NCBI GenBank assembly: GCA_016186625.1
Contig: JACPLG010000008.1
Coordinates: 147,142 to 211,141 of the forward strand
Direction: 5' to 3'
Length of the DNA: 64,000 nucleotides
From: Candidatus Levyibacteriota bacterium
GTDB taxonomy: Bacteria; Patescibacteriota; Microgenomatia; Levybacterales; UBA12049
Shown: positions 9,027 to 23,378 of the stretch, piece by piece
Position numbering within the stretch: position 1 is the stretch's first letter
Layout of the letters: every line of letters begins with the position of its first letter
The notes under the pieces: model-generated
The model's database searches: none
The model's input: the letters and a program-made list of their open reading frames with translations, nothing else
Told to the model about the DNA's origin: nothing
Position numbers and translations under genes: made by a program

Positions 9027-9103
9027 GTTGAAAATAATTAAGAGTTGGTTATCTAACTATATCAAGGTATATATAAAGCAATTCTGACCGCAAACGGAGG
9101 AAT

Positions 9104-9199
9104 ATGATAAATGTCCTAATTAGTTTAGACGGCAAAAAGACTTGTATAGAAATATACAGGTCTTTTTTGTTGCGTTTTAAAGACGCTGCCCATCTTTAA
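9104..9199 (+). CDS. Candidate 31-codon leader/small ORF (MINVLISLDGKKTCIEIYRSFLLRFKDAAHL) with a strong SD
   Basis: GGAGG at 9096-9100, four nt before the ATG. The ORF overlaps the terminator hairpin at 9138-9169. It is not in the six-frame track because it is under 60 aa. Confidence 0.25.
   Translation: MINVLISLDGKKTCIEIYRSFLLRFKDAAHL
9138..9169 (+). terminator. Intrinsic terminator (11-bp stem, GAAA loop, T6 tail)
   Basis: AGACTTGTATA-GAAA-TATACAGGTCT followed by TTTTTTG. Confidence 0.55.
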
Positions 9200-9625: not shown

Positions 9626-10519
9626 ATGACAAATTTAATAAACACAAAAATAATTCTTTCAGGAGCAACAATTCTGGCAGCTGTAGCGCTCATTATAGGC
9701 GCCACATTTGCCTTCTTTAGCGACTCCGAAACTTCAATTGGAAATATATTTGCAACAGGTGAGCTGGATTTACAAATTGATGCAGAAGCACACTACGCAG
9801 GTTTAACTTGCGATGGGAGTGTTTGGGATGAAGATGTCCCGGATCAATCGACGAGACCCGATTTAATCGGCGATGACTGCGATGGCACATGGGCATTGAC
9901 CGATTTGGATGAAACTCATAAATTCTTCAATCTTACTGATATAAAGCCTGGAGATACAGGTGAGAATACAATCAGCATTCACGTGTTTGATAACGATGCT
10001 TGGGTTTATTTTGAAGTTAATCCAACATCCACTCCAAATGCCTTACAAAATGCACTGTTATTTAATGTATGGCTAGATCAAGGAGGTACACCTGGTTTTC
10101 AAGGACAAATAAACGATCCAACTGAGGGTGATAATATTAGACAACCAGTTACAGAACCTTTGTTAGCAAGTCCAGGAACTATCGATGTGGGCGGAGAGGC
10201 ATATGTATTAGGTCCAATTTTAGCTGCTGTAAGATCGTCTATTGATGCTGCAAGTGACGTATGTGATGATTCTGATACAGGAAGTGATCCAGATGGAGAC
10301 GGAGTAACAGATGGAAATGTGGGTGCATGTCAGGGGCTACCGATAGATGGTCATCTTGTTGGAAGCACAACTTATTACTTTGGTGTAGGCTGGGAATTGC
10401 CTAGCAGCACGGGAAATGAAGCACAAGCGCTAAGTTTTGTAGCGGATATGATATTCCAAGCAGTCCAATACAGAAACAATCCATCACCGGTATTTCCATT
10501 ACCAACGCCAACACCGTGA
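9626..10519 (+). CDS. TasA/camelysin (peptidase M73)-family secreted protein with a SipW-cognate signal peptide
   Basis: N-terminus …ATFAFFSDSETSIGNIFATGELDL is the SipW-dependent signal/cleavage-region motif. The downstream block DIKPGDTGENTISIHVFDN is characteristic of TasA/CalY. Confidence 0.65.
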   Translation: MTNLINTKIILSGATILAAVALIIGATFAFFSDSETSIGNIFATGELDLQIDAEAHYAGLTCDGSVWDEDVPDQSTRPDLIGDDCDGTWALTDLDETHKFFNLTDIKPGDTGENTISIHVFDNDAWVYFEVNPTSTPNALQNALLFNVWLDQGGTPGFQGQINDPTEGDNIRQPVTEPLLASPGTIDVGGEAYVLGPILAAVRSSIDAASDVCDDSDTGSDPDGDGVTDGNVGACQGLPIDGHLVGSTTYYFGVGWELPSSTGNEAQALSFVADMIFQAVQYRNNPSPVFPLPTPTP

Positions 10520-10530
10520 TGGTTAATTAA

Positions 10531-10600
10531 GGGTGGGGATGTTGGGAATTTGGCCACCGGCTCAGAGAGCCTTTGGCTCGGAGAGGAAGATTCCCCACCC
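10531..10600. repeat. Structured intergenic element (outer stem GGTGGGGA/TCCCCACC) containing a tandem CCGGCTCGGAGAG-like motif also found inside the CAP gene (8734-8765)
   Basis: Read directly. About 85% identity over 34 nt between 10557-10590 and 8741-8775. Confidence 0.3.
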
Positions 10601-10719
10601 TAGGGCTGAGAGAAAAAATAAACGTGTGATTTGCATAGAAGTTTATTGTTCGAGCATGTTAAGAATACGTTGGTGATGCTCAGCGCAAGCTTCTCGACTC
10701 TCCTTCGATAGACTCAGGA

Positions 10720-12069
10720 TTGCTCGAAGAAGAATTAGACAACGCTAAAAATATGAAAAGTATATTTAAAGTTATAAATTTAACTATTGCGGGTGTACTT
10801 ATTGCTGTTGCAATTGGAGTTGCCTATATTGCACTTCCCTTTTTTGGCAATCAGGCTTTAATTGTCCGCTCAGGATCCATGAGTCCTGCAATTGATGTGG
10901 GATCTGTAGCAGTTGTTTCTGCAAAGCAGAACCTTCTACCATTTAGTAAACCTGCTATTGCGCAAGTATATAAAACCGGAGATGTTATTGCATTTCGTTC
11001 AGAAAAAAACAAGGAGATAATAGTAACTCATAGAATTGTCAATGTAATTACAGAAAATAATAAAACGCTTTATAGGACTCAGGGGGATGCAAATGATGAT
11101 CCGGACGCTGGACTTGTAAAAAGTGAAAATGTTTTGGGAAAAGCCAACATAGTTATTCCGTATGTTGGAAAAGTCCTGGCTTTTGCCAAGTCAGACATAG
11201 GATTCCCTGCTCTTATATTATTTCCGGCGGTTCTTGTAATACTATTTGAGACCTGGTCAATCATAAAAGAAATTCGCAAACGAAAACAGCTAAATGACAG
11301 ATTTGGATTTGTGAATTTTGATCTTAGAAAGAAAAATAAAGTTAGCTTTTTTGGGCTTAGAGTTTTAATTCCTCTTTTAATATTCAGTCTTTTTATCCCA
11401 AGCACTATTGCCTTTTTCAGCGATTCAGAAACCTCAACCGGAAATGTCTTCCAAGCCGCGGAGAATTTTCCGCCGCAAACTGATCATCTTGTAATTAGTG
11501 AAGTTCAAATAGACGGAGGTATTGCTCAAAACAAAGACAATGATTTCATAGAATTGTATAATCCCACTTCGTCACCAATTAATTTAGAGGGATATAGACT
11601 TGTAAAAAGAACAGGCAATTCCCCTAATGACACAAATATAATTACTTTTACCTCATCACACATAATACCTGCTCATGATTATTTTTTATGGGCTCATGTG
11701 TCTGGAGGTCAAAATCCTAATAATTTTGGCATAAATATTGGGGCTGATGTAACATCATCAGATACGCTTTCTGCAAGCAATAGTGTCGCGATTAGGTTTG
11801 GAGATCTTAATACTGGAACCATCGTAGACGCATTAAGCTGGGATCCTGGCGCGTCATCACTGAAAGAAGGCTCTCAGTTTCCATCAAATCCTTCAGCAAA
11901 TCAAAGCATGGAAAGGAAGGCTTATTCAACATCAACACAGGCAACAATGGAAGGCGGAGCAGATGCTTCAAAGGGAAATGGATTTGATTCAAATGATAAT
12001 TCAGTTGATTTTATCTTAAGATTAGTTTCGCAGCCGCAAAATTCAAGTAGCACGCCTGAAATACCATGA
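10720..12069 (+). CDS. sipW: Signal peptidase I (SipW/archaeal type, S26) fused in-frame to a second TasA-type signal plus a lamin-tail domain (LTD)
   Basis: Residues 1-190 carry TM, SGSMSP catalytic box, …THRIVNV…, TM. Residues 198-449 start at in-frame GTG 11311 (VNFDLRKKNKVSFFGLRVLIPLLIFSLFIPSTIAFFSDSETSTGNVF), then HLVISEVQIDGG…DFIELYNPTSSPINLEGYRL, which is the LTD signature. Confidence 0.7.
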   Translation: MLEEELDNAKNMKSIFKVINLTIAGVLIAVAIGVAYIALPFFGNQALIVRSGSMSPAIDVGSVAVVSAKQNLLPFSKPAIAQVYKTGDVIAFRSEKNKEIIVTHRIVNVITENNKTLYRTQGDANDDPDAGLVKSENVLGKANIVIPYVGKVLAFAKSDIGFPALILFPAVLVILFETWSIIKEIRKRKQLNDRFGFVNFDLRKKNKVSFFGLRVLIPLLIFSLFIPSTIAFFSDSETSTGNVFQAAENFPPQTDHLVISEVQIDGGIAQNKDNDFIELYNPTSSPINLEGYRLVKRTGNSPNDTNIITFTSSHIIPAHDYFLWAHVSGGQNPNNFGINIGADVTSSDTLSASNSVAIRFGDLNTGTIVDALSWDPGASSLKEGSQFPSNPSANQSMERKAYSTSTQATMEGGADASKGNGFDSNDNSVDFILRLVSQPQNSSSTPEIP

Positions 12070-13166
12070 AAAAAAGAAGTATTAAAAAAAGATTATTAAC
12101 GATTGTTTCGTTGTCTTTGATTGTATTAGTAGCTTTGCAGACTAACCTTTTTGGACTTCTTGAGAGGAAAACCGCTTATGCCGTTGGGGATCTTAATGTC
12201 ATCTGGGGAGTGCCTGACGGGGATCCAATATTTGTAGTTGAAAATATGCTTCCCGGGGACATGGAGGATAGAAATGTTGATGTTATTAACGGTGCTTCTT
12301 CATCAAGAGACGTTGGAGTAAGAGGCGTTAAGACTGAGGAAATTGCAAGTTTTTCCGGGATTTTAGATTTTGTAATTTCAGAGAATGGTTCGCCTATTTA
12401 CGGAACAGGAAGTTCTACTGGTCCTAAAACCTTGCAGCAGTTTTTTGATGAGTCCGCTGGACCAAATGGACTTTTTCTTTCAACACTAAGTTCCGGAGAT
12501 ACAACTACATATAACTTTAAAGCTACTTTTCCAGAAGGATCTGGAAATGAATATCAGGGAGCAAGAGTTGTATTTGATCTTATTATAGGTATCTCAATTC
12601 CAATCCAGGGGTGTGAGGGCATTGATCTTTTACCAAATCCCATAATTGGAACTGAGAAAGCAGAAACTATCAGAGGAACGCCGGGAAATGATCTAATTCT
12701 GGGACTTGAGGGAGCGGACATAATTTATGGTATGGGCGGGCACGACTGCATAATCGGTGGTCCTGGAGCAGAGAATTCTATTTTTGGGGGTCCCGGGAAT
12801 GATGTTATTTTTGGAAATGAAGGCGCAGATTCAATTTATGGGCAAGGAGGAGACGATACTATGTTTGGAGGAGAGGGAGCAGATAAAATCAGTGGCGGAA
12901 CGGGGAACGATCACCTGATAGGAGGAGATGATGCAGACGTTTTGGAAGGAGGTCCTGGAAATGACCATCTTGAGGGAGGAGACGGACCGGATGATTTGAG
13001 AGGAGGGGCTGGAAATGATTTACTTGAAGGTCAAGACGGAGCAGACACAATGCGGGGTAACTCAGGACAGGATAACTTGATAGGAGGTGCAGGAAATGAC
13101 TTTGCTCATGGAGGCGGGGGCACTGATACCTGCGATGCCGAAACAGAGATAAGCTGCGAACTCTAA
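12066..13166 (+). CDS. Secreted protein with a TasA-like N-domain and C-terminal RTX-type Ca-binding nonapeptide repeats
   Basis: Signal peptide. ENMLPGDMEDRNVDVING block. About ten GGxGxDxL-type repeats (GGPGNDVIFGNEGADSIYGQGGDDTMFGGEGADKISGG…). ATGA overlap with the upstream gene. Confidence 0.55.
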   Translation: MKKRSIKKRLLTIVSLSLIVLVALQTNLFGLLERKTAYAVGDLNVIWGVPDGDPIFVVENMLPGDMEDRNVDVINGASSSRDVGVRGVKTEEIASFSGILDFVISENGSPIYGTGSSTGPKTLQQFFDESAGPNGLFLSTLSSGDTTTYNFKATFPEGSGNEYQGARVVFDLIIGISIPIQGCEGIDLLPNPIIGTEKAETIRGTPGNDLILGLEGADIIYGMGGHDCIIGGPGAENSIFGGPGNDVIFGNEGADSIYGQGGDDTMFGGEGADKISGGTGNDHLIGGDDADVLEGGPGNDHLEGGDGPDDLRGGAGNDLLEGQDGADTMRGNSGQDNLIGGAGNDFAHGGGGTDTCDAETEISCEL

Positions 13167-13729
13167 CTTATGGCCTCTGCAAAAACTAATAACCTTTTAA
13201 GAGTTGTCCCCACTGGCCAGCAGGTTTGGAGAATCAGCTGGTCTTTTGTTTGCTCCGTTAAGTATCTTACCTCATTAGGCCAAACATTTTTTTTGTCAAC
13301 AACAGCGTATCTATAAATTTTTCCGTCTTTTTTAATTTCTACCTCATCCCCTTTCTCAAGTTCACCAAGTCTAAAGAAAATTGTATTATAGCTTGCTATT
13401 TCTATTGGATTTCCGGAGGAATGGGCAAAAATAAATACACTTCCCCTTTCTCCTGGAAGAGGTGTTCCTTTTGCATGAGCAACTCCCCTTTTAAGAGCTT
13501 TTTTATATTCTCCTTCATTAAATGGATCAACTCCAAAAATGATTGGAGCCTGCGCCTTTATCTTAGAGACAGTAAGATAACTTCCTTTAAGCTCAGCCTC
13601 ACTTTTAATAGTTTTAGGAAGCAAATAAATTGAAATTATAGGGTAACCTATCAGGAAAAGAATGAGCAAAGACAAAACTATAAATAAGTTTCCAACGTGA
13701 TAGGATAATGGCTTGGTTTTTGTTTTCAT
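13163..13729 (-). CDS. Sortase (class D/E-like transpeptidase)
   Basis: N-terminal TM anchor. His in FIFAHSSGNP. Catalytic TLxTC as LILQTCWP. Conserved Arg (TTLKRLLV). Confidence 0.75.
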   Translation of the reverse strand: MKTKTKPLSYHVGNLFIVLSLLILFLIGYPIISIYLLPKTIKSEAELKGSYLTVSKIKAQAPIIFGVDPFNEGEYKKALKRGVAHAKGTPLPGERGSVFIFAHSSGNPIEIASYNTIFFRLGELEKGDEVEIKKDGKIYRYAVVDKKNVWPNEVRYLTEQTKDQLILQTCWPVGTTLKRLLVFAEAIS

Positions 13730-13777
13730 GGGTTGTATTATATAAAAAATCCCGATTGTAAAACCGGGATAATTTAG

Positions 13778-14893
13778 TTAAGCTGCCACAAGAAAATTTG
13801 GGGATCTTCCTGATCGCAACCGCAGGTACCACCCAAAGAAGAACATCATTATGCTTCCTATTATCATAAGTATTGTCCATAAGCCGCCGGTTACCGGAAG
13901 AATATCACCGGGACTAATTGCAGCGGCAAGCACTTCCCCTGCTTTTCCAACGCCATTACCTGCGCCATTTGCTCCATTTTGAGTGGGAACCTGGGGTGGA
14001 GCTGCGCCCGGAGGAATTTCTTTTTCTTTTTCTTTTTCACAGCACTCAACGTCAACTAAAGTTACATTTATCGGGCCATTTTCAATTACTGATTCAAAAA
14101 TTATATCACCGGTTGTTATTGAGACGCTTCCTCCGCTATTGTCATTTGCGCGATTTCCGCCTGTGTTTAGGTCCCAATTACTGTTATTTACAATAGTAGC
14201 GGAGTTATTAACCGAGATATCAATCAAGCTATCTATGTTTAGATTTATAGTGTTTACAGAGTCCGAGCCATTGCCATCGACTTTTAGAAAAACACTTTGG
14301 CCACCGTCTGCTATTCTAAGACTGGATATGTTGATCCATTTATTTTTAATAGTGTCCGTTGCATAAATGCTTCCAGTTGAAATTGAGACATTTCCTCCTG
14401 TGTTTCCATTTGCCTGGTTGTTACCTGTATTGACATACCCGTTAACATAATTTGAGATATTGGCATTTTGATTGATATTAATTGTAACTTGATTGTTTTG
14501 GGTTGAGCTGACAGAGTTCTGTGAGCCTGATCCATTTCCTGACACGCTGATATTTGTCCCCGGGGCACAGCAAACATTTGAAGCTACGGAGTTATTGATA
14601 TTCGAATTGTCGATTGAGGAATTTACCGAAGCATCTCCAGTGGTAATTGCCGTATTTCCACCTGTGTTATCATTTGCTTTATTGTTGCCGGTATCGGCAT
14701 TAATATCTACGTTGTTATTAACGTCTGCTTCATTGTTCTGATTAAGAGCGGTTGTGGATGTATTATTAACTGAGACATTGCTTTGCGAGTCGCTTCCGTT
14801 TCCAGAAACAGTAATCTCATCAGCATTTGCTAAAGCTGTTGTGAACAAAGTCGGCAGAAGAGCCAAGCATATAATTAAAATTTTCCTTGTCAT
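13778..14893 (-). CDS. Sortase-substrate surface protein with N/T/G-rich ~90-aa repeats and a C-terminal LPVTGG sorting signal
   Basis: Signal peptide. Repeats (VSGNGSDSQSNV…ADTGNNKANDNTGGNTAITTGDAS…CC). LPVTGG encoded at 13883-13900, followed by a hydrophobic segment and RLRSGRS tail. Confidence 0.65.
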   Translation of the reverse strand: MTRKILIICLALLPTLFTTALANADEITVSGNGSDSQSNVSVNNTSTTALNQNNEADVNNNVDINADTGNNKANDNTGGNTAITTGDASVNSSIDNSNINNSVASNVCCAPGTNISVSGNGSGSQNSVSSTQNNQVTININQNANISNYVNGYVNTGNNQANGNTGGNVSISTGSIYATDTIKNKWINISSLRIADGGQSVFLKVDGNGSDSVNTINLNIDSLIDISVNNSATIVNNSNWDLNTGGNRANDNSGGSVSITTGDIIFESVIENGPINVTLVDVECCEKEKEKEIPPGAAPPQVPTQNGANGAGNGVGKAGEVLAAAISPGDILPVTGGLWTILMIIGSIMMFFFGWYLRLRSGRSPNFLVAA

Positions 14894-14995
14894 TTTTTAT
14901 GGATGTTCACCCTGAGGCAGACTAGTGGACACCTGTAATTCTACTATTATTTATTATTTTTTGAATTACTGGCAAAAGAGTGTAAGAACTTTGTG

Positions 14996-17155
14996 TTAAA
15001 ACTTACTACTTTCTCTTGCTCTTATAATTTTCAACCCTCTTCTAATAAGTATTATTAATGCTAAGACGGGTGTTGCTAACAGCAACCAGGCCAAATTAAT
15101 TCTGGTTTTATCTTTATCTGCCAGGATCCCAAGGTTAGTATTTTGTGTTCCTGCAATAAGTTCGGCTGGAACACTTAGGTTTTCGTCACTTGACGGCCCA
15201 AAAGAGAAACTTGGATAAGAGAATGGTCCCGCAGCCGCAATGACATTGCTACTTCCCGCAACCGCCGTATTAGTGTTATTTGAATTTGCGGATACCCAAC
15301 CCCCACCGTTATTATCAGACGAGTTATTGCCAGAGGAGCTATTACTGGTTTGCGGACCTCCTTGGGCAAGCACTTCTCCCGAATCTTTGTGAGCCCCGGG
15401 AGTCAGGAAATCACCAGCCCAACTCCCAAAGACATTAACCATTGTTACAAGTAATTTTCCGCCAACTATATTGTTATTCACAAAGTTTACAATATTGGCT
15501 ATAACTCCCGCATCTCCTGTTGTAATTGAGGAGCTGCCTCCTGTATTGTCATTTGCGCTATTTCCTCCGGTGTTTGCCGAAAGATTGACATTATTTACCA
15601 CATTTGCGGTGTTGGTTTGATTGGTATTATTGTTGACTTCGGAGCTAACAGTGCCATTATTTGTTGATCCTGTCCCATTTCCCTCATTTGTGACTGTAAT
15701 TGCTCCAAACACGTCTTCGCTAAACTGTGTTCCGTCAGATCCTGCATAAAGAGATCCGGCCGGTGCTCCAAAGAGTTTTCCAACCCAATTTCCTGCCTCG
15801 TTTATGATGACCAGCCACATATTTCCACCTAGAAGATTCATATTTGCAATATTAAGAAGATTGGCATCAATTTTTACATTCCCTGTGCTAATAGTACTGC
15901 TTCCTCCGGTATTTCCGCTTGTTGAGTTGTCTCCTGTGGTTGCATCAATAGTGAGATGATTATCAATATTTGCCGTATTAAATTGATTTATAGTGTCATT
16001 AATATTCTGGGCAACATTAGCATTATTATCGGAATTACTTCCATTCCCTATGTTGGCCAGGCTAATATTCCCGCAAACCGGGCAAATTGTTCCAAAAACG
16101 CCCTCGGGAAGAATAATATCTCCTACCAAGTTTCCGAAAATGTTTACTACGCCATATACTACATTTCCAGAAAGATTATTGTTGAGGAATGTTAATAAGT
16201 TAGCAGCTACGTTAGCATCACCTGTTGTGATTGAGGAATCACCACCGGTATTTCCGCTGGCGGTATTATCACCAGAATTTGCCAAAAGATCCATGTTGTT
16301 AATTACTGTGCCATAATTTGTTTGATTAGTATCATTATTAACAGTGGAGTCTATATTCGCGCTGTTATCCGAGTTTGAGCCATTCCCAATGTTTGATGCT
16401 TCAAATACTCCGCAGCCTAAAATACAACTTGCCCCATAATCAAGTAGATAATCTCCAATGTGGTCATCTACTATATTAAACTCAGAGACTGCAACGCCAG
16501 CAACATTTGTATTTGCAGCTGTAATTATTGTTCCCGACGTATTAGCATCTCCTGTATTTATTGTAGAATTTCCTCCAGTATTATTTGATGCTGAGTTCTG
16601 TCCGCTTACTGCAGCGCCTGTCAAATCATTATTGATATTTGCGCTGTTATTCTGATTAGTATTATTGTTCTGGGCGAGTGTAGCCGAGCCGCTGTTGTTG
16701 GAATTTGATCCGTTCTCCGAATTCACAACTGAGACTGCGGGGCTAGATCCTGTTCCAGTCCCATTGCAGCATGGATTAGTTGTAGCAACATTTGTATTTG
16801 CGTTTGTCAGGATATTTCCATCGCTTGTTGCCGTTCCTGTATCAACAGTAGTGTCGCCAGTATTGCCATCATAATTGGTTCCTGTCTGGTTCTGTGGCTG
16901 GGTGCTTGTTGTATTCTCCGAAGACGTGGGACTTATCTCCTGGATCGTTTGGTTTTGTGTTGTATCAACAGATTGGCTTGTTGGCTCAGGGTTACTGCTT
17001 ATAGCTTGACTGGCCGATTGTCCACTTTGGGCCTGTTGTCCACTTTGGGCCTGTTGTGCTTCTTGGGCCAAGACATAAGATGAACCAAATATACCAAGGT
17101 TTAGAAAAAGGACTGTAATTAGAACTATTGATACAATTTTTTTTATCTTCCTCAT
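14996..17155 (-). CDS. Large secreted repeat protein, paralog of the 13778 and 17274 genes (NTGGxSxIxTGDA modules, paired Cys), with C-terminal TM plus basic tail
   Basis: Signal peptide. QQAQSGQ tandem. Repeated …GNGSNSDN…NTGGSSTISTGN… modules with CC/CxxC. C-terminus …INLAWLLLATPVLALIILIRRGLKIIRAR. Confidence 0.55.
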   Translation of the reverse strand: MRKIKKIVSIVLITVLFLNLGIFGSSYVLAQEAQQAQSGQQAQSGQSASQAISSNPEPTSQSVDTTQNQTIQEISPTSSENTTSTQPQNQTGTNYDGNTGDTTVDTGTATSDGNILTNANTNVATTNPCCNGTGTGSSPAVSVVNSENGSNSNNSGSATLAQNNNTNQNNSANINNDLTGAAVSGQNSASNNTGGNSTINTGDANTSGTIITAANTNVAGVAVSEFNIVDDHIGDYLLDYGASCILGCGVFEASNIGNGSNSDNSANIDSTVNNDTNQTNYGTVINNMDLLANSGDNTASGNTGGDSSITTGDANVAANLLTFLNNNLSGNVVYGVVNIFGNLVGDIILPEGVFGTICPVCGNISLANIGNGSNSDNNANVAQNINDTINQFNTANIDNHLTIDATTGDNSTSGNTGGSSTISTGNVKIDANLLNIANMNLLGGNMWLVIINEAGNWVGKLFGAPAGSLYAGSDGTQFSEDVFGAITVTNEGNGTGSTNNGTVSSEVNNNTNQTNTANVVNNVNLSANTGGNSANDNTGGSSSITTGDAGVIANIVNFVNNNIVGGKLLVTMVNVFGSWAGDFLTPGAHKDSGEVLAQGGPQTSNSSSGNNSSDNNGGGWVSANSNNTNTAVAGSSNVIAAAGPFSYPSFSFGPSSDENLSVPAELIAGTQNTNLGILADKDKTRINLAWLLLATPVLALIILIRRGLKIIRARESSKF

Positions 17156-17273
17156 TTATTTAAAACCTCTAATCTGAAATTTAATGTTTAAATTTTAAGT
17201 TATAAGTTTTAAATTTATCTTTTCGGGTAGGGTATCTTGCAAGTGCTAACAAGACACCCTACTCCATAAAAGA

Positions 17274-18515
17274 TTAAAGACCTAACAAGGCTAACAGATC
17301 CGAAAGACTAAAGTTGAAACTAAAGTCGAAATCGAAATCGAAATCTGGTAGTTCAAAGTCAGAGTCTTCTCCGAAAACATTGACATTTCCTGATGTGGAT
17401 ACGTCAACATTTGTCTCGGAATCGCCGGTTTCGATGGATGGATCTCCATCACCGCCGGACGTGTTATCCTCGGCATCGTTTTTGCCTGTGTCTGCATCAA
17501 CGTTTACGTCATTATTAACGTCAGCATCATTATCTTGATCTACATCCAGGTCAGAATTTAGATTGACATTAACAGTGTTATCGGAGTTGGACCCATTCCC
17601 GTCAACCTTAACGGTTAGGTCTCCAAATAGACATCCGCAATCTGCTGCAGCGTGATTAAAGTTAACCCATGTGTCAACATTAACGTTTGCTTCAGCATCT
17701 CCGGTGTCTATGACAACGTCACCGTCTCCGGTGTTATTGTTAGCGTCGTTGTTTCCTGTATCTAAGTCAACATCAACGTAATTTCTAACATCCGCGTCAT
17801 TGTCTTGATCAATATCAATATCGCTTTTAAGATTTGCGATTATGTCGTTGTCTGAGTTGGAGCCGTTTCCGGTTATCCAGAGGCTTAATGACCCTCCTCC
17901 TCCGTTGTTTCCTCCAACCACTGCGTGATTGAAGTTGGCTACGGTGTTAAGAGAAACATTGCCCTTCGCATTCCCGGTTTTGATAGAAACTCCTCCGTCT
18001 CCTGTATTACCGTTGGCGTCGTTTCTTCCTGTGTCAAGATCAACATTTACGTTATTGCGAACGTATGCGTCATTATTCTGATCAATGTTTATGTCGTTGT
18101 TTGAGTTAAGATTAACGGTATTATCAGAATTTGATCCGTTATTGCTGATTTTGACCTCAGTGTTGCCGTTATCGCAACAATCAACGCTTGCCCAGTTTCC
18201 ATTAAGGGTGTTGTTAACGCTAACATCTGCCTTCGCGTTTCCAGTCTCAATTGAGACCTCTCCGTTACCAGTGTTATTGTTGGCATCGTTGTTACCTGTG
18301 TCGGCATCAACGTTGACATTATTTCTAACATTGGCGTCGTTATTTTGGTCTACATTAACATCTCTATTAAGATTTACGACTGCATCATTGTTAGAGTTAG
18401 ACCCATTACCGTTTATGATAATGGTGGTTTCGGCAAAAGCTAATGGCAAAAGCGCATTAGCAAGTACTGCTCCGGTTGCGATTCCTGTAGCTAGTTTTGT
18501 TTTTAAATCTAACAT
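17274..18515 (-). CDS. Secreted repeat protein, paralog (GNGSNSxN…ADTGNNDANNNTGxGxVSIxTGNA modules with paired Cys; C-terminal DFDFDF)
   Basis: Start re-set to the in-frame ATG at 18513-18515 (MLDLKTKLATGIATGAVLANALLPLAFA signal). It is preceded by SD AGAGAGGGGGTGA. The track ORF extends to 18602 without a signal peptide. Confidence 0.5.
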   Translation of the reverse strand: MLDLKTKLATGIATGAVLANALLPLAFAETTIIINGNGSNSNNDAVVNLNRDVNVDQNNDANVRNNVNVDADTGNNDANNNTGNGEVSIETGNAKADVSVNNTLNGNWASVDCCDNGNTEVKISNNGSNSDNTVNLNSNNDINIDQNNDAYVRNNVNVDLDTGRNDANGNTGDGGVSIKTGNAKGNVSLNTVANFNHAVVGGNNGGGGSLSLWITGNGSNSDNDIIANLKSDIDIDQDNDADVRNYVDVDLDTGNNDANNNTGDGDVVIDTGDAEANVNVDTWVNFNHAAADCGCLFGDLTVKVDGNGSNSDNTVNVNLNSDLDVDQDNDADVNNDVNVDADTGKNDAEDNTSGGDGDPSIETGDSETNVDVSTSGNVNVFGEDSDFELPDFDFDFDFSFNFSLSDLLALLGL

Positions 18516-18732
18516 TAAGTAATTCACCCCCTCTCTTTTATTTATTTCTCCAGAATTTGGAGATTTATTCGTCGCCTGAGGCGACAGCACTTTTTTCCGC
18601 ACGTCCTAAACTCTCGTCTAAAACAAAAACGGAGGCCATTCCTCGTCCATACTACTAGGACAAGAAAAAGCCTCCGTTTGCGGTCAGCCATCTAGTTCTA
18701 CACCCTACGATATAACACTAAATAAGCAATTG

Positions 18733-18990
18733 TCAATACTTAAAATTTAAGTTTATCCCAGATCCGCTTCCTTTTCTAAGAACTAACCCTGCAATTTTTT
18801 TATTTTCTTTTAAAGAAACCTTTGTTTTTTTGATTATTCTAGTAGAGATTTGAGTTATATGTCCGTCCTGTACTATTATTTCAACACTGCCGTATTTAAT
18901 ACCACCAAGTGCTTTTAGGATTTCTTTTAATGCATCGGCATTGACTTCGCTTACATTCATATTTTTTATGGCAGCTTTAACAATTCTCAT
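18733..18990 (-). CDS. YezD/DUF2292-like small protein
   Basis: …LKALGGIKYGSVEIIVQDGHITQISTRIIKK pattern resembles the YezD family. Confidence 0.35.
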   Translation of the reverse strand: MRIVKAAIKNMNVSEVNADALKEILKALGGIKYGSVEIIVQDGHITQISTRIIKKTKVSLKENKKIAGLVLRKGSGSGINLNFKY

Positions 18991-19083: not shown

Positions 19084-19794
19084 TTACCTTTCAAGAGTTA
19101 GCTTTACCGCATCTTTTCTTCCTGTTATTTCTCCAACCATTAATATTATATTTTTGTCCGAATCATTAATTGGAAGACCAATCCTTGTATATTTTGTTGA
19201 ATTTGCCTGAATTTCAACCGGATCATTGTGAATCTCAGGAGCGAGTTGTTCCGCTGAATTATTTAATCTAACTCTAATATAGTCTTTTGCATTTATTTCA
19301 ATAGATTGTCTATAAGGATTTGTAATCTTAAGGTTCAGGATTAGAAATGTTCTTCCTTTTACGGCTCTGGCCAATTTTCCTTGATAGATAAATGCATCTT
19401 GAATATTTGCATTCTCAACCACATATTCAATTCTGCTTACTTCTTTTCCTTCAGAATCTCTAAGCGGAAATTCAAACTTTTTATTTAGCGTTTGAGTTGC
19501 TATGGGCTTTGGTGCATTTGCGCGCTCATCTAAGGAAATAGTGCCGCCTTGCGGAAAAAATCTTCCTCCTGCATAAAAAGCAACAGCCAAAAGAATGATA
19601 ATTAAAATAACAGGTCCTAGATTCTTTGGACGATTAAGTCCGTTTGAGTTAAAAGAGGGTTTTCTTATTCTTGAAGTAGCATATCGAAATCTGTTAGAAA
19701 AATCAGATCTTAAATTTATATTGTCAATCATTTCAAAAAAAAACTCCTGACGGACAGAAGCAAATGTAAGTGAATGTGATATTAACACTAGCAA
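19084..19794 (-). CDS. Membrane-anchored beta-sandwich-like protein (DUF4352-like)
   Basis: Single TM (VILIIILLAVAFYAGG), then a soluble domain with an FLILNLKITNPYRQSIEINAKDY block. Confidence 0.3.
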   Translation of the reverse strand: MLVLISHSLTFASVRQEFFFEMIDNINLRSDFSNRFRYATSRIRKPSFNSNGLNRPKNLGPVILIIILLAVAFYAGGRFFPQGGTISLDERANAPKPIATQTLNKKFEFPLRDSEGKEVSRIEYVVENANIQDAFIYQGKLARAVKGRTFLILNLKITNPYRQSIEINAKDYIRVRLNNSAEQLAPEIHNDPVEIQANSTKYTRIGLPINDSDKNIILMVGEITGRKDAVKLTLER

Positions 19795-19873: not shown

Positions 19874-21391
19874 TTGCCTATGAACATTCTAAATATTAAG
19901 GTGCTTAGAAATATTATTGAAGTGCTCCCTTTTGTTGCCGTTTTTTTTGCTTCACTTTATAGACCAACTGATCCTGATCTGGGATGGCATTTAAAATACG
20001 GAGAATATTTTGTCAGGACTGGCGGGGTACTTAGGGATAACATTTTTGCAACCATGATGCCGGATTACAAGTGGGTTAATCATTCATGGGCATCAGATGT
20101 TCTCGTTTTTCTAGCATATAATCTTTGGGGATTTTTAGGAGTAACCTTGTTGGGAGCTGCAATTGTTACCCTGACTTTTATATTTGTGTCTAAGGCATTC
20201 AATCTTTCTTTTTGGGACAAAGCATTCATTTTCCCAATTGTCTTATTCATTGTTAGTAATGTAAATGCCATCTCTTTCAGATCACAGCAAATGTCTTATC
20301 TTTTTACAGCACTTCTCTTTTACATCATTTCTCTTTATAACAAGAATCCAAAATATCTCTTTCTTACAATTCCGTTGTTTTTAATCTGGGCAAATTTCCA
20401 CGGCGGGTTCATTTTAGGCCTGACACTTCTTGGCGGATATGTTTTTCTTAAAAAAATTGTCGAAATTTATAAGAAATTTGAAATAAGAAAAGCAATTCTT
20501 GCTTTTAAATTTGAGTCAATTGTCATAACTGGAGTTGTAATTGCGACTCTTATTAATCCGTTTGGTTACGGGGTTTATCTTGAGACTTTCCGCCATTTCG
20601 GAAACCCTTGGTTAAAATACATTGCAGAGTGGGCACCATTTGTTGATATGTCGCGCCAATGGTGGAATCTTATAATTTTTGTCAATTTATTTTTAGCATC
20701 TGTTTTAATTTTATTTTTTACCGGAAGACTAGGAAAGGAAAAACTTCCTGTTGTGGGGCTCATAATTTTATTTATTCTACTCTCATTTTATGAGAGACGT
20801 TATGCATGGTCAATGTACTATATTTCCTTTCCAATACTTGTTGGAATCTCCGGCTTCTTTAAACCTAACTCAAAATCGAAACAATTTTTTATAGCAGGAG
20901 GAGTTTCAATTATTTTTCTTCTTATTGTTATATCAACAAAAGAACCGATTAAAAATTATCAGACAATGAATTGGCAAACATATTGCCAAACCCAATCAAA
21001 TCTATGCTCGTACAATGCTGTTCTTTTTTTATCAAAAAACAATCTGACAACCAATCTTTCCACACCATATAGCTGGGGCGGCTGGATGATCTGGAATTTT
21101 CCGGACGTTATGCCAAGCGTAGATGGCAGAATGGTTGCCTGGAAAGATGAAGAGGGTTATAGCGCTTTTGCAGAGTATTACACAAATGTGACGGATTGGG
21201 AAAGCATAGATAAATCAAAGTACGATGTTGTACTAGTACTCAAACAAAAACCAATGTTTAAAAGACTTAAGAGCTTAACAGCAGAAGGAAAATGGCGCTG
21301 GCTCTATGAGGATCCGATTTCTGCAGTTTTTGTTCGCAAGAATCCGAAAGAAATTACTCTTCCCAAAAAACTCATAATTCCTGAAAATTAA
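19874..21391 (+). CDS. Polytopic membrane protein, putative GT-C-type glycosyltransferase
   Basis: More than ten predicted TM helices. Acidic motif in the first loop (RPTDPDLGWHLKYGEY). Large C-terminal extracytoplasmic domain. Confidence 0.35.
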   Translation: MPMNILNIKVLRNIIEVLPFVAVFFASLYRPTDPDLGWHLKYGEYFVRTGGVLRDNIFATMMPDYKWVNHSWASDVLVFLAYNLWGFLGVTLLGAAIVTLTFIFVSKAFNLSFWDKAFIFPIVLFIVSNVNAISFRSQQMSYLFTALLFYIISLYNKNPKYLFLTIPLFLIWANFHGGFILGLTLLGGYVFLKKIVEIYKKFEIRKAILAFKFESIVITGVVIATLINPFGYGVYLETFRHFGNPWLKYIAEWAPFVDMSRQWWNLIIFVNLFLASVLILFFTGRLGKEKLPVVGLIILFILLSFYERRYAWSMYYISFPILVGISGFFKPNSKSKQFFIAGGVSIIFLLIVISTKEPIKNYQTMNWQTYCQTQSNLCSYNAVLFLSKNNLTTNLSTPYSWGGWMIWNFPDVMPSVDGRMVAWKDEEGYSAFAEYYTNVTDWESIDKSKYDVVLVLKQKPMFKRLKSLTAEGKWRWLYEDPISAVFVRKNPKEITLPKKLIIPEN

Positions 21392-21563: not shown

Positions 21564-23378
21564 GTGGATCTTATTTTGGTGAGAAACAAATCGATTTCAA
21601 AGCTTTTGACAGTTGTTGGAATATCAGGCAGTACTTATCACTTCAAAAAAGAAAACGGACAAATCAATATTTATCAGGAGATTTCGGAAAATAAATTTCA
21701 AAAAATAAACAAAAAAATCGTCATTCAGAATTTGGTCGAAAATAAAGAAGATTTATCTGGAATTGATTTTTTATCCATCTCTTCCTTTAATAAGACTTTT
21801 ATGGGAGTGATTGGATTTGAGAATAATTTTTACGTTGCTAAGTCAAAAGACGGATTTATTTGGGCTCTTGGTAAAAAACTTTTAAAAAATTTAAAAAGCG
21901 CATACGTTGTCCCGGAGTACGAATTTGAAGGGGGAAAAGTTATATATTGGTCGGATGATGCCCTCCACGTTGGATTTTCCCAAGATTCGACCTGGACGCT
22001 TTATGATGACCCAATTTATGATCCTCGAAGCAAATCAAGAAATTTACTTGATATTCTGGGAGTATTTAATGGAAAAGACTTGTTATTTGTTCCATACGCC
22101 TCAAACATTAGCATAAACGGTATAGATCATTTCAGTCTTTCAGTTGCTCTGTTTTCAAAACAAGACCCAAGAAGGACAGAGTTTAGACTTTATTATCCAA
22201 TATGGAATATCCCAATGGATCTAGTTGATCAAATAGTTTCGCCAATTGCAGTACTGGAGATCAAAAACAAGATTTATTCTTTTTGGAGAGGAAAAGAGAA
22301 AATTTACAGCTTCCGCCATCCGCTTCTTGAACAAATAGTTTTTGATTATCCCAAAAATATCATAGCCGCCAATCTGCAGAAGTCAGCCCATAATCCTATC
22401 CTTTCACCTGATCCCAAAAACGGCTGGGAGTCATTGGCTGTATTTAATCCGGCAGCTTACTATGACGAAGATAAAAAAAAACTTCATCTTATGTATAGAG
22501 CTGTTGGATCCAACTGGCGGTCTGTCTTTGGACACGCAACAAGCGATGACGGCATCACTATTAATTCAAAAAGCAATCTTCCCGCCTATGTTCCCAGATC
22601 TTCATTTGAAGGACAGGAAGTTATGTTTAATCCAAATTCTCAATTTACATCAGGACCGGGAGCAGGAGGATGCGAAGACCCAAGGCTTACGAAGATCGGT
22701 GATAAAGTATACCTTACTTACGTTGCATACGATGGATGGTCTCAGCCTCGTGTCGGACTATCTTCAATCGCCTATGACGATTTCATAACAGAGTCCTGGA
22801 ATTGGTCACCTCCCGTTATAATTTCAAAACCCGGAGTTATTGATAAAAATGCAGTTATTTTCCCAGAGAAAATCCGCGGAAAGTATGTAATTATGCATAG
22901 AATTTTTCCGGATATACTAATTGACTTTGTGGATAGTCTTGATTTTGACGGACAAACGTTCCTTAAGGGTGAGTTTAAAATTTCGCCAAGAAGCTTTGGA
23001 TGGGACAGTAGGAAAATTGGCGCAGGTCCGCCTCCCATAAAAACAAAAGAAGGGTGGCTCCTTATTTACCACGCCGTTGACGATGCCAAGAGCCACCAGT
23101 ATCAGATCGGCGCAATGATCCTGGATCTTCTTGATCCTACGAAAGTTATTTGTAGGTCAAGCCAACCTCTGATAAGTCCTACTAACTGGTATGAAAATGA
23201 GGGATATAAATCCGGAGTGGTTTATCCGTGCGGAGCAGCATTGATTGATAGGAAACTTCACGTTTACTACGGTGGGGCAGATACATACATTTGCGTTGCA
23301 ACAGCGCCATTTGATTCTTTTCTAAACACCCTAAAAGCAGAAAGAAATCATAAGATGCGTGAGTTTTTCCTTAACTAA
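21564..23378 (+). CDS. Glycoside hydrolase family 130 (beta-mannoside phosphorylase-like) protein with two GH130/DUF377 beta-propeller domains
   Basis: HNPILSPDPKNGWESLAVFNPAAYY…, CEDPRLTKIGDKVYLTYVAYDG, GWLLIYHAVDD…YQIGAMILDLLDPTKV. Confidence 0.7.
   Translation: MDLILVRNKSISKLLTVVGISGSTYHFKKENGQINIYQEISENKFQKINKKIVIQNLVENKEDLSGIDFLSISSFNKTFMGVIGFENNFYVAKSKDGFIWALGKKLLKNLKSAYVVPEYEFEGGKVIYWSDDALHVGFSQDSTWTLYDDPIYDPRSKSRNLLDILGVFNGKDLLFVPYASNISINGIDHFSLSVALFSKQDPRRTEFRLYYPIWNIPMDLVDQIVSPIAVLEIKNKIYSFWRGKEKIYSFRHPLLEQIVFDYPKNIIAANLQKSAHNPILSPDPKNGWESLAVFNPAAYYDEDKKKLHLMYRAVGSNWRSVFGHATSDDGITINSKSNLPAYVPRSSFEGQEVMFNPNSQFTSGPGAGGCEDPRLTKIGDKVYLTYVAYDGWSQPRVGLSSIAYDDFITESWNWSPPVIISKPGVIDKNAVIFPEKIRGKYVIMHRIFPDILIDFVDSLDFDGQTFLKGEFKISPRSFGWDSRKIGAGPPPIKTKEGWLLIYHAVDDAKSHQYQIGAMILDLLDPTKVICRSSQPLISPTNWYENEGYKSGVVYPCGAALIDRKLHVYYGGADTYICVATAPFDSFLNTLKAERNHKMREFFLN

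What the first reader, a model, noticed from the sequence alone, without database searches (positions are those of the whole stretch)
13778..18515. Three paralogous surface proteins built from an apparently novel ~90-aa Asn/Thr/Gly-rich module ending in paired cysteines
All three proteins repeat a unit of the form GNGS(N/D)S.N…(N/D)-rich…ADTGNN.AN.NTG(G/D)G.VSI.TG(D/N)A…CC. The low-complexity but ordered pattern suggests a beta-solenoid. One ends in LPVTGG, one in a TM helix plus basic tail, and one in DFDFDF. I do not recognise the module as a named repeat family. Tandem paralogs of this kind often mediate variable adhesion.
Basis: seen in the sequence. Interest (0 to 1): 0.6.

Follow-up and report, generated by a model that had tools for sequence, protein, structure and literature searches.

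The report
Conserved surface-protein operon, new repeat module
Three neighbouring genes of an uncultured groundwater bacterium (Levybacteria, Microgenomatia) encode secreted proteins built from a roughly 90-residue asparagine-rich repeat that matches no known family, and together with a sortase they form an operon kept across the whole class, so they probably build a fixed cell-surface structure rather than variable adhesins.

Summary
Three minus-strand genes carry 3, 4 and 4 copies of one ~90-aa module, plus a half copy in B: A 13778-14893, B 14996-17155, C 17274-18515. The module occurs nowhere else in the window. It matches nothing in Pfam, NCBIfam or PDB sequences. It does occur in 3,289 protein clusters, and every one that carries a name is a Patescibacteria 'hypothetical protein'.

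Cysteine pairs follow only some modules. The genes are not variable either: the order TM protein, DUF2292, C, B, A, sortase and the module counts (4/4/3) recur in about 60 species-level genomes.

A has LPVTG plus a TM helix and basic tail, so it is a sortase substrate. B ends in a conserved (I/V)NLAW motif, TM helix and basic tail. C has no anchor and ends in an acidic-aromatic tail.

AlphaFold2 gives an all-beta model of C (pLDDT 73) with one 31-residue strand run per module. A single module alone gets no secondary structure. This suggests that one module forms one rung of a very wide beta-solenoid.

My best reading (about 0.5) is an envelope scaffold in which anchored A and B carry stacked C.

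In passing: a covarying 5' leader hairpin with an invariant 19-mer precedes this operon and other surface-protein genes.

The parts
17274..18515 (-). Gene C: secreted 413-aa protein with a signal peptide (..LAFA|ET), 4 modules and an acidic-aromatic C-terminal tail (ELPDFDFDFDFSFNFSLSDLLALLGL). It has no anchor. The mature protein has pI ~4.05, with 71 acidic and 12 basic residues.
18162..18428 (-). C module 1 (aa 30-118), ending ..VDCCDNGN
17889..18161 (-). C module 2 (aa 119-209), ending Gly-rich with no Cys
17619..17888 (-). C module 3 (aa 210-299), ending ..NFNHAAADCGC
17346..17618 (-). C module 4 (aa 300-390), with a GDGDPS insertion and no Cys
14996..17155 (-). Gene B: 719-aa protein. 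It has an N-terminal signal or anchor, a Q/S/T-rich linker, a half-module ending in CC (aa ~96-130), and 4 long modules of 110-121 aa, each with an extra hydrophobic VNxFGxWxGD segment. It ends with an S/N/G linker and a C-terminal RINLAW motif, TM helix and basic tail.
16406..16735 (-). B module 1 (aa 141-250)
16067..16405 (-). B module 2 (aa 251-363)
15701..16066 (-). B module 3 (aa 364-485)
15356..15700 (-). B module 4 (aa 486-600)
13778..14893 (-). Gene A: 371-aa protein with a signal peptide, 3 modules, a P/G/A-rich linker, and LPVTGG followed by a TM helix and RLRSGRSP (a sortase sorting signal). It is 100% identical to Candidatus Levybacteria HYW63_03410.
14555..14818 (-). A module 1 (aa 26-113), ending ..NVCCAPGT
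14291..14554 (-). A module 2 (aa 114-201), no Cys
14024..14290 (-). A module 3 (aa 202-290), ending ..VECCEKE
13163..13729 (-). Sortase gene, last in the operon (PF04203, E 3.5e-23). A His is present in FIFAHSSG, the active-site-like motif LQTC is present, and an Arg lies in KRLLVF.
13749..13770 (-). Terminator-like hairpin with a T-run between A and the sortase gene. It may act as a partial terminator that sets the ratio of structural protein to enzyme.
   Evidence: pattern match only
18623..18691 (-). Conserved 5' leader RNA element. The invariant GCUGACCGCAAACGGAGGC runs into a 23-bp covarying hairpin, followed by a U-tract.
18707..18736 (-). Promoter-like TTGACA-N18-TATCGT just upstream of the leader. 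The TTGACA box is conserved in most relatives aligned.
18733..18990 (-). DUF2292 small protein gene, syntenic upstream of C in most genomes
19084..19794 (-). 236-aa protein with one TM helix and an extracytoplasmic domain. It is the first gene of the conserved block (called 'up236' in my analysis).
9080..9171 (+). Second, diverged copy of the leader motif (TCTGACCGCAAACGGAGGA), followed by a different terminator-like hairpin. It lies upstream of the M73/TasA-like, SipW-LTD and RTX operon.
9626..13166 (+). Convergent neighbouring operon: camelysin/TasA-like (PF12389) 9626-10519, SipW-type signal peptidase fused to an LTD domain 10720-12069, and an RTX-repeat protein 12066-13166. It adjoins the A-B-C block in many genomes.

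Best explanation
The three genes form the structural core of a conserved six-gene envelope operon specific to Microgenomatia: TM protein, DUF2292, C, B, A, sortase. All three proteins are exported. They consist almost entirely of one previously unclassified ~90-aa Asn/Asp/Thr/Gly-rich module.

The modules are not autonomous domains. They stack on one another, probably in parallel and in register, with one module per rung. This would give a short, very wide beta-solenoid of 3-5 rungs stabilised by Asn/Gln/Thr ladders and Gly arcs.

Each paralog has its own attachment. A is cut at LPVTG by the operon's sortase and joined to the cell wall. B is held in the membrane by a C-terminal helix preceded by a conserved (I/V)NLAW motif. 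C is released, is strongly acidic and has no anchor.

I infer that the open solenoid ends let the paralogs associate end to end. On this view, anchored A and B act as a base or template and C is the distal, repeating subunit of a fibre or layer on the cell surface. The CC and CxC pairs may add disulfide cross-links.

Shown here: the module, the domain counts, the sorting signals, the synteny, the distribution and the absence of known-family matches. Inferred from the models: the stacking geometry. Inferred without a direct test: co-assembly and the role of the cysteines.
For: Module and counts.

No known family. hhalign against CsgA and against the RTX neighbour gave 0.3% probability.

Large uncharacterised family: 3,289 clusters at 50% identity with E<=1e-3, and 774 with E<=1e-30. 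Every named member is a Patescibacteria hypothetical protein. Relatives with 8-10 modules carry no other Pfam domain, which points to a structural rather than an enzymatic role.

Conserved operon. Module counts are C=4 (50 ORFs), B=4 (51 of 66) and A=3 (43 of 48).

Sorting signals: LP[VAIRM]TG, a TM helix and a basic tail in A orthologues. K-K-x-(I/V)-x-(I/V)-N-L-A-W, a TM helix and a basic tail in about 50 of 57 B orthologues. The sortase domain scores E 3.5e-23.

Architecture: the AF2 model of C has pLDDT 73 and pTM 0.66 and is all-beta. Each module contains one uninterrupted 31-residue strand run (42-72, 131-161, 222-252, 312-342), which is too long to find a partner inside its own module. 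The same module alone, with a 99-sequence alignment, gives pTM 0.31 and no assigned secondary structure. All top-50 Foldseek PDB hits are beta-helix or solenoid proteins, led by the functional amyloids FapC and CsgA, though none is significant. The invariant residues are N, Q, T, S and G rather than hydrophobic core residues. Within-protein module identity in C (0.51) exceeds cross-species identity between non-equivalent modules (0.36-0.47), as expected if neighbouring rungs co-evolve.

Context from the literature: sortase is near-ubiquitous in Microgenomates, and MdbA-like disulfide oxidoreductases are enriched in CPR (PMC6744442). There is a precedent for a Cys-Cys motif that makes inter-subunit disulfides in Ena pili (10.1101/2020.08.21.260141).
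Against: I could not inspect model coordinates, so parallel in-register stacking is inferred only from secondary-structure strings and hit lists. pLDDT is moderate (73). A rung of ~90 residues is outside what I know of solved soluble beta-solenoids. The 'no secondary structure' result for the single module was reported as 'DSSP gave nothing' and could be a technical failure.

Nothing tests co-assembly of A, B and C. Two-module paralogs carry a Cys pair in only one module, so the disulfide partners are unknown. Elevated within-protein identity could also come from gene conversion or composition drift. There are no expression or proteomic data.
Confidence: 0.5

Rival explanations
1. The three are independent, monomeric surface proteins that do not co-assemble. 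Each displays an acidic Asn/Asp-rich beta-solenoid face that binds something outside the cell: host-cell surface, divalent cations or mineral. The three anchoring modes simply place them at different depths of the envelope.
For: All three are very acidic (pI ~4.05-4.1; C has 71 acidic and 12 basic residues). Flat beta-solenoid faces are common ligand-, ice- or surface-binding platforms, and Foldseek's weak hits include adhesins and ice-binding proteins. [quoted passage not shown] An RTX calcium-binding protein is encoded next door.
Against: Strict co-inheritance of all three paralogs in fixed order, with one sortase, in about 60 genomes suggests that they work together. C has no anchor at all and would be lost unless it binds something on the cell. 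Positional identity of the modules and fixed copy numbers fit a defined assembly better than generic sticky surfaces.
Confidence: 0.25
2. One reading: beads-on-a-string adhesins made of autonomous repeat domains, as in Cna-B/SdrD/Rib-type stalks. Tandem paralogy and repeat number would vary between strains to change adhesion or evade recognition.
For: Tandem paralogs with internal repeats, an LPXTG anchor and an adjacent sortase resemble Gram-positive MSCRAMM loci. Across the whole family, copy number ranges from 2 to 10.
Against: Orthologues keep 4/4/3 modules and their lengths across class-level divergence. There is no DNA-level repeat. A single module gets no secondary structure and pTM 0.31. 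There are no hits to any Gram-positive stalk or pilin domain. Only one of the three proteins has a sortase signal.
Confidence: 0.1
3. A sortase-polymerised pilus of the Gram-positive type, with C, B and A as tip, shaft and base pilins joined covalently by the sortase.
For: The operon layout, with several secreted paralogs followed by a sortase whose best NCBIfam similarity is to class C/D sortases, though far below cutoff. A carries LPVTG.
Against: B and C lack any LPXTG-like motif. The window copies contain only 7-8 lysines each. I made no explicit search for the YPKN pilin motif or the E-box. There are no SpaA or Cna-B type domains. Polymerisation by sortase requires a sorting signal on every shaft subunit.
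Confidence: 0.07
4. The ORFs are low-complexity or compositional artefacts without real function.
For: Asn reaches 16-20% and the composition is skewed. One database copy of a relative is mis-named 'Dentin sialophosphoprotein'.
Against: There are hundreds of full-length homologues with position-specific invariant residues, conserved signal peptides, sorting signals and synteny.
Confidence: 0.01

Closest known systems
Curli (CsgA major subunit with the cell-associated nucleator CsgB) and Fap functional amyloids
   Same: These are secreted subunits built from imperfect repeats that stack as rungs of a beta-solenoid, stabilised by Asn/Gln ladders and Gly turns. An anchored paralog templates a free paralog. 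The best (non-significant) Foldseek hits were FapC (9u4u) and CsgA (8c50).
   Different: There is no sequence relationship (hhalign 0.3% to CsgA; no Curlin_rpt hit). The repeat is ~90 aa rather than ~22 aa (CsgA) or ~35-40 aa (FapC); those two figures are from memory. The host is a monoderm CPR bacterium, and no other Pfam-recognisable export component lies in the conserved block; I did not search specifically for CsgG/E/F or FapF. Anchoring is by sortase and a TM helix. Amyloid properties are untested.
LPXTG cell-wall-anchored surface proteins and their housekeeping or dedicated sortases (Gram-positive bacteria)
   Same: Protein A has a signal peptide, LPVTG, a hydrophobic stretch and a basic tail, and a sortase gene follows it directly.
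   Different: The passenger region is a new module, not an Ig, Cna-B or other known domain. The paralogs B and C in the same operon use other C-terminal signals. In Woese- and Gottesmanbacteria-type genomes the A orthologue has (I/V)LGLSxTS in place of LPXTG.
TasA/TapA/SipW biofilm-fibre system of Bacillus
   Same: A TasA/camelysin-like protein (PF12389) and a SipW-type signal peptidase are encoded immediately beside the block in many genomes. They are preceded by the same conserved leader motif.
   Different: A, B and C are unrelated to TasA in sequence and have ordinary signal peptides. The link is neighbourhood and a shared leader, not homology.
Bacillus endospore appendages (Ena pili)
   Same: These are Gram-positive-type surface fibres in which a conserved Cys-Cys motif forms inter-subunit disulfides (10.1101/2020.08.21.260141). 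They offer a possible model for the CC and CxC pairs here.
   Different: Ena subunits are jellyroll domains (DUF3992) assembled by beta-sheet augmentation. No homology was detected, and the disulfide pattern here is unknown.
Parallel beta-helix passenger domains of autotransporter, TPS and phage tailspike proteins
   Same: They are all-beta repetitive surface proteins with stacked rungs, and they dominate the Foldseek hit list.
   Different: From memory, their rungs are about 18-30 residues. There is no sequence or significant structural match (TM below 0.1). They use different secretion routes.

Membership tests
LPXTG sortase substrate (protein A) | N-terminal signal peptide | tested here: met
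   MTRKILIICLALLPTLFTTALANA|DE, read from the sequence. Conserved in homologues. No dedicated predictor was available.
LPXTG sortase substrate (protein A) | C-terminal LPXTG motif followed by a hydrophobic segment and a positively charged tail | tested here: met
   ILPVTGG, LWTILMIIGSIMMFFFGWYL, RLRSGRSP. LP[VAIRM]TG is conserved in most A orthologues.
LPXTG sortase substrate (protein A) | A sortase encoded in the genome or locus | tested here: met
   PF04203, E 3.5e-23, for the next gene downstream. Syntenic in most loci.
LPXTG sortase substrate (proteins B and C) | LPXTG-type motif before a TM helix and a basic tail | tested here: not met
   B has RINLAW before its TM helix. C has no TM helix at all.
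Curli / Curlin_rpt (PF07012) | Sequence match to the ~22-aa Sx5QxGxGNxAx3Q repeat | tested here: not met
   No Pfam hit at E<=1. hhalign of the module profile against E. coli CsgA gave 0.3% probability.
Curli / Curlin_rpt (PF07012) | Amyloid properties (ThT binding, SDS resistance, cross-beta diffraction) | not testable with these tools
   Needs purified protein.
RTX beta-roll (PF00353) | GGxGxDxUx nonapeptide repeats | tested here: not met
   No PF00353 hit on A, B or C, whereas the neighbouring gene scores 1.8e-39. hhalign of the module against that neighbour gave 0.3%.
Known beta-helix / DUF11 / Gram-positive stalk or pilin domains (Pfam) | Any Pfam-A or NCBIfam model above threshold | tested here: not met
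   Only noise for the three proteins, for 99 diverse modules and for ten large relatives.
Beta-solenoid fold class (structural, not a homology family) | Repeats stack as successive rungs, with strands pairing between repeats rather than within them | tested here: inconclusive
   The full-length AF2 model shows one 31-residue strand run per module. The single-module model has no secondary structure. The Foldseek hit list is all solenoids but none is significant. Coordinates could not be inspected.
Sortase-assembled Gram-positive pilus | Every polymerised subunit has a sorting signal and a pilin-motif lysine | tested here: not met
   Only A has a sorting signal. No pilin domains were found. The pilin-motif lysine was not searched for explicitly.

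The most novel reading that the evidence does not exclude
Microgenomatia build their main cell-surface structure from a new kind of functional-amyloid-like protein: a 'giant-rung' beta-solenoid in which each ~90-residue module is a single serpentine layer. Three ancient paralogs divide the work. A is the wall-anchored base (via sortase). B is the membrane-anchored base, carrying a new (I/V)NLAW C-terminal sorting signal. C is the free stacking subunit. The operon, the 2-module paralog genes and the TasA-like/SipW/RTX operon would be co-regulated through a shared, previously undescribed leader RNA (CUGACCGCAAACGGAGG plus a terminator hairpin), which a dedicated RNA-binding antiterminator may read.
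Probability: 0.22. Interest if true: 0.8.

Novelty: new variant of a known kind. Interest (0 to 1): 0.6.

Why it matters
Microgenomatia (OP11) are abundant in groundwater and have no cultured representative. A 2026 review lists little about their surface beyond type IV pili and occasional S-layers (PMC13293708). The 2019 CPR protein-family survey left the Microgenomates-enriched families as hypothetical proteins (PMC6744442).

This operon offers a concrete, near-universal candidate for an envelope structure in that class. It provides a new repeat domain family of thousands of members that could be curated. It also yields a candidate new C-terminal sorting signal, a variant sortase motif, and a candidate regulatory RNA that links several surface-protein operons.

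If the one-module-per-rung model is right, it would extend the known size range of beta-solenoid rungs. All of these proposals can be tested with recombinant protein and existing metaproteomic or cryo-ET material.

Tried and rejected
- Pfam and NCBIfam scans of the three proteins, of 99 separate modules and of ten large relatives gave nothing above noise.
- PDB sequence searches with protein C and with the module profile gave 0 hits at E<=10.
- Foldseek of the C model against PDB and BFVD gave no significant match.
- hhalign of the module profile against E. coli CsgA and against the neighbouring RTX protein showed no relation.
It worked with a 10-sequence alignment.
- A viral contig scan found no relatives.
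- Tandem Repeats Finder found no ~270-nt DNA repeat, so I rejected recent duplication and slippage.
- I considered inter-rung disulfide stapling between modules 1 and 3 across the Gly-rich module 2. I set it aside because 2-module paralogs carry a Cys pair in one module only.
- I considered the NGS sequon as a glycosylation site, together with the neighbouring 505-aa multi-TM protein as its transferase. That neighbour is syntenic in only 11 loci and has no family hit, so I did not pursue it.
- I considered C's [LWF]P[DE][FW] tail as a sortase motif and rejected it, because no TM helix or basic tail follows.
- Rfam has no match for the leader RNA, either at gathering thresholds or at E<=10.
- Literature searches for Microgenomates or Patescibacteria with sortase, LPXTG, S-layer or amyloid found no description of these proteins.
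Full report
**What is there**

The region holds three ORFs on the minus strand:
- A: 13778-14893, 371 aa.
- B: 14996-17155, 719 aa.
- C: 17274-18602 as the longest ORF. Its real start is almost certainly ATG 18515 (413 aa). A GAGGGGGTG ribosome-binding site precedes that ATG, and 47 homologues begin their signal peptide there.

Protein A is 100% identical to a hypothetical protein of a Candidatus Levybacteria MAG. The window therefore comes from a member of the Microgenomatia (OP11) within the Patescibacteria/CPR.

**The module**

Cutting the proteins at the GNGS anchors gives 11 units that align over about 89 columns. They share 36-60% identity to the first unit. Twelve positions are invariant (N8 G9 S12 N36 G45 N47 N52 G54 G56 I60 T62 G63) and seven more are nearly invariant.

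An HMM built from these units, run on a six-frame translation of all 64 kb, hits only these three ORFs:
- four copies in C;
- four in B, plus a weak C-terminal half-copy at residues 62-131;
- three in A.

The period is 88-90 aa in A and C. It is 110-121 aa in B, where each unit carries an extra hydrophobic VNxFGxWxGD segment.

No tandem repeat of about 270 nt exists at the DNA level, so the duplications are old.

CC or CxC follows modules 1 and 3 of A and C. In B, pairs follow the half-module and modules 1 and 2 (CC, CxxxC, CxxC). Module 2 of A and C ends in a Gly-rich stretch, and the last modules of B and C have no cysteine.

**Known families**

- None of the three proteins has a Pfam-A or NCBIfam hit above noise.
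- Ninety-nine diverse modules taken from homologues also have none.
- Ten large relatives with up to 10 modules have none.
- PDB sequences give no hit at E<=10 with protein C or with the module profile.
- hhalign of the module profile against E. coli CsgA and against the RTX protein encoded next door gives 0.3% probability.

By the libraries available here (Pfam 2025, NCBIfam June 2026, PDB 2026), the module is unclassified.

It is not rare. An exhaustive HMMER search of 1.84 billion cluster representatives finds 3,289 proteins at E<=1e-3, 2,174 at E<=1e-10 and 774 at E<=1e-30, each with 2 to 10 modules. Every source name retrieved is 'hypothetical protein', apart from one spurious 'Dentin sialophosphoprotein'. 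The named organisms are Levy-, Gottesman-, Davies-, Woese-, Chisholm- and Roizmanbacteria, Microgenomates, or unspecified Patescibacteria/Parcubacteria group. No relatives were found in viral contigs.

**Conservation and synteny**

C and A each have hundreds of full-length orthologues of nearly constant length, about 400-430 aa and 365-405 aa, at 40-70% identity.

I examined 68 loci recovered from one genome per species and called ORFs on them. The order is up236 (a one-TM protein), DUF2292, C, B, A, sortase. This order is kept in roughly 60 of the loci, across at least five candidate phyla of the old nomenclature.

Module counts are fixed: four in 50 C-class ORFs, four in 51 of 66 B-class ORFs, and three in 43 of 48 A-class ORFs. 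The C class here also contains a 2-module paralog and truncated ORFs.

Modules at the same position in different species are more alike than modules at different positions. In C the values are 0.45-0.57 against 0.36-0.47; in A they are 0.44-0.45 against 0.35-0.37. The module array therefore predates the divergence of these lineages.

These are fixed, co-inherited paralogs, not a variable adhesin repertoire.

A fourth paralog family has about 200 aa, two modules and a signal peptide but no anchor. It often sits beside the neighbouring RTX-SipW-TasA-like operon. It is absent from this window.

**Three attachment modes**

*A is a textbook sortase substrate.* It has a signal peptide, three modules, a Pro/Gly/Ala linker, LPVTGG, a hydrophobic helix and RLRSGRSP. 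LP[VAIRM]TG is conserved in most orthologues. In Woese- and Gottesmanbacteria-type loci the same position reads (I/V)LGLSxTS before the helix, usually still with a sortase gene next to it. The next gene (13163-13729) is a sortase (PF04203, E 3.5e-23).

*B ends in a tripartite signal.* The conserved K-K-x-(I/V)-x-(I/V)-N-L-A-W motif runs into a TM helix and then a basic tail. It is present in about 50 of 57 orthologues. No NCBIfam C-terminal sorting-domain model matches it.

*C has no anchor.* Its conserved tail is [LWF]P[DE][FW], then alternating acidic and aromatic residues, then FxLxDLLxxLG. The tail is modelled as a short helix at low confidence.

All three mature proteins are acidic, with pI about 4.05-4.1. 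C has 71 acidic and 12 basic residues.

**Architecture**

AlphaFold2 on C with 48 homologues gives mean pLDDT 73 and pTM 0.66. The structure is all-beta and the pattern repeats in each module: a 7-residue strand, the GNGSNS loop, an uninterrupted 31-residue strand run (42-72, 131-161, 222-252, 312-342), the TGxNxAxxNTGG loop, and two or three shorter strands.

The other strands within a module add up to fewer residues than the 31-residue run, and they are short. The four long runs must therefore pair with one another.

As a test, I predicted a single module with a 99-sequence alignment of diverse modules. The result was pTM 0.31 and pLDDT 66, with no secondary structure assigned. That is what a lone solenoid rung would give, and not what an autonomous domain would give.

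Foldseek finds nothing significant (best E 0.05, TM below 0.2). However, every one of the top 50 PDB hits is a beta-helix or solenoid protein. The functional amyloids FapC and CsgA appear at ranks 1 and 5.

The invariant positions are Asn, Gln, Thr, Ser and Gly, which are ladder and arc residues, rather than hydrophobic core positions. Within-protein module identity in C (0.51) is higher than cross-species identity between non-equivalent modules. That fits co-evolving neighbouring rungs, although gene conversion would give the same result.

I conclude, with moderate confidence, that one module forms one rung of a short and unusually wide solenoid.

Caveats:
- I could not inspect coordinates.
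- The 'DSSP gave nothing' message could be a technical failure.

**Most likely mechanism**

Taken together, the anatomy points to one envelope structure made of three parts. The relevant features are:
- stackable units with open ends;
- one covalently wall-anchored paralog, one membrane-anchored paralog and one free paralog;
- strict co-inheritance with a single sortase;
- no enzymatic domain anywhere in the family.

On this view A and B act as a base or template and C is the distal subunit that stacks on them, and probably on itself, to give a fibre or a layer. The nearest functional analogy is CsgB/CsgA in curli.

The CC and CxC pairs may add covalent cross-links. Ena pili provide a precedent for a Cys-Cys motif that forms inter-subunit disulfides, and CPR genomes are enriched in MdbA-like oxidoreductases.

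Co-assembly and the role of the cysteines are inferences. I put the whole picture at about 0.5. The minimal claim, that these are conserved sortase-linked surface structural proteins made of a new module, I put near 0.9.

The main rival (0.25) is that the three act separately as acidic binding surfaces. Sortase-polymerised pili, variable adhesins and artefact are each contradicted by specific tests (see the rivals section).

**A shared leader RNA (found in passing)**

The 217-nt gap between DUF2292 and C contains, in order:
- a promoter-like TTGACA-N18-TATCGT;
- the sequence GCTGACCGCAAACGGAGGC;
- a long hairpin whose base is always AAACGGAGG/CCUCCGUUU;
- a U-tract.

The 19-mer is identical in 34 of the related loci, although their proteins are only about 50% identical. 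Allowing two mismatches in its 17-nt core, it occurs 68 times in those loci.

In a 34-sequence alignment, the 23-bp hairpin has 14 pairs with compensatory double changes.

A covariance model scores the window copy at 68.9 bits (E 2.6e-18). It also finds a diverged second copy at 9080-9171, at 19.2 bits (where 0 matches were expected by chance). That second copy lies upstream of the TasA-like/SipW/RTX operon.

In other genomes the same core precedes 2-module paralog genes, RTX genes or the TasA-like gene.

Rfam has no match.

The core can also form a CCG-NNNN-CGG mini-hairpin that competes with the 5' arm of the terminator hairpin. That is the layout of a protein-dependent antiterminator. It could equally be an mRNA-stabilising 5' structure or a palindromic DNA operator.

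Whatever its mechanism, it ties the A-B-C-sortase operon to the other secreted-protein operons as one probable regulon.

**Novelty and literature**

Searches of the open literature found no description of these proteins. The CPR protein-family survey notes that sortase is near-ubiquitous in Microgenomates and that the 35 Microgenomates-enriched families are mostly hypothetical (PMC6744442). A 2026 review mentions only type IV pili and occasional S-layers for the phylum (PMC13293708).

I rate the finding a new variant of a known kind. Sortase-linked repetitive surface proteins and solenoid fibres are known. This module, its proposed rung size, the three-way anchoring scheme, the (I/V)NLAW signal and the leader RNA are not.

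Noticed in passing
window 18623-18691 (-); second copy 9080-9171 (+); loci L006-L071, about 150-200 nt upstream of the C gene: An ultra-conserved leader element. The invariant GCUGACCGCAAACGGAGGC runs into a 23-bp hairpin (14 pairs with compensatory changes) and a U-tract. It has no Rfam match. It is found upstream of the C-B-A-sortase operon in at least 50 genomes, and also upstream of 2-module paralog, RTX and TasA-like genes. It is a candidate regulon-wide antiterminator, leader or stabiliser RNA.
   Followed up: partly
window 14996-15130 (C-terminus of B); B orthologues in L007-L069: A conserved C-terminal tripartite signal of K-K-x-(I/V)-x-(I/V)-N-L-A-W, a TM helix and a basic tail, present in about 50 of 57 B orthologues. 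No NCBIfam sorting-domain model matches it. It may be a new sorting signal.
   Followed up: partly
A orthologues in L010, L012, L014, L016-L018, L020, L023, L027, L030, L048, L061, L069: In Woese- and Gottesmanbacteria-type genomes the LPXTG of protein A is replaced by (I/V)LGLS[DKNA]TS (or VLGLSAAAG / VMGIAAASN) before the TM helix. A sortase gene is usually still adjacent. This may be a variant sortase recognition motif.
   Followed up: no
window 10720-12069 (+): A single 449-aa ORF fuses a SipW-type signal peptidase (aa ~23-190) to a lamin-tail-domain protein. That second part carries its own SipW-dependent-type signal peptide (TIGR04088 hit at aa 222-247). In L021 and L025 two separate adjacent ORFs both match this query.
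   Followed up: no
window 9251-9508 (+): A small 85-aa GIY-YIG nuclease gene sits between the second leader copy and the TasA-like gene, like an inserted mobile or homing element. A short conserved possible leader peptide (MxxVxIxLD...) follows the motif at about 9104.
   Followed up: no
window 19874-21391 (+) and 21564-23378 (+): A 505-aa multi-TM protein with no Pfam hit, possibly a GT-C-type glycosyltransferase, lies divergent from the operon and is syntenic in 11 Levybacteria-type loci. A GH130 mannoside phosphorylase follows it. The module's most conserved motif, N-G-S, is an N-glycosylation sequon. No link was tested.
   Followed up: partly
window 13163-13166: The convergent RTX-repeat gene (ends 13166) and the sortase gene (ends 13163) overlap by 4 nt at their stop codons. 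In many relatives a ~200-aa 2-module paralog lies between them. It is missing here.
   Followed up: partly
loci L008, L011, L012, L016, L060 and others (record titles): Many genome contigs records that carry this Microgenomatia-specific operon are titled 'uncultured Gammaproteobacteria bacterium', and one is titled 'Candidatus Nanoarchaeia archaeon'. These are evidently taxonomic mislabels of the deposited MAGs.
   Followed up: no
P0422 (Woesebacteria, 1046 aa): One database protein is a B-A fusion: B with its INFAW-TM signal runs straight into A with its signal peptide. This is probably a gene-calling read-through and not a real fusion.
   Followed up: no
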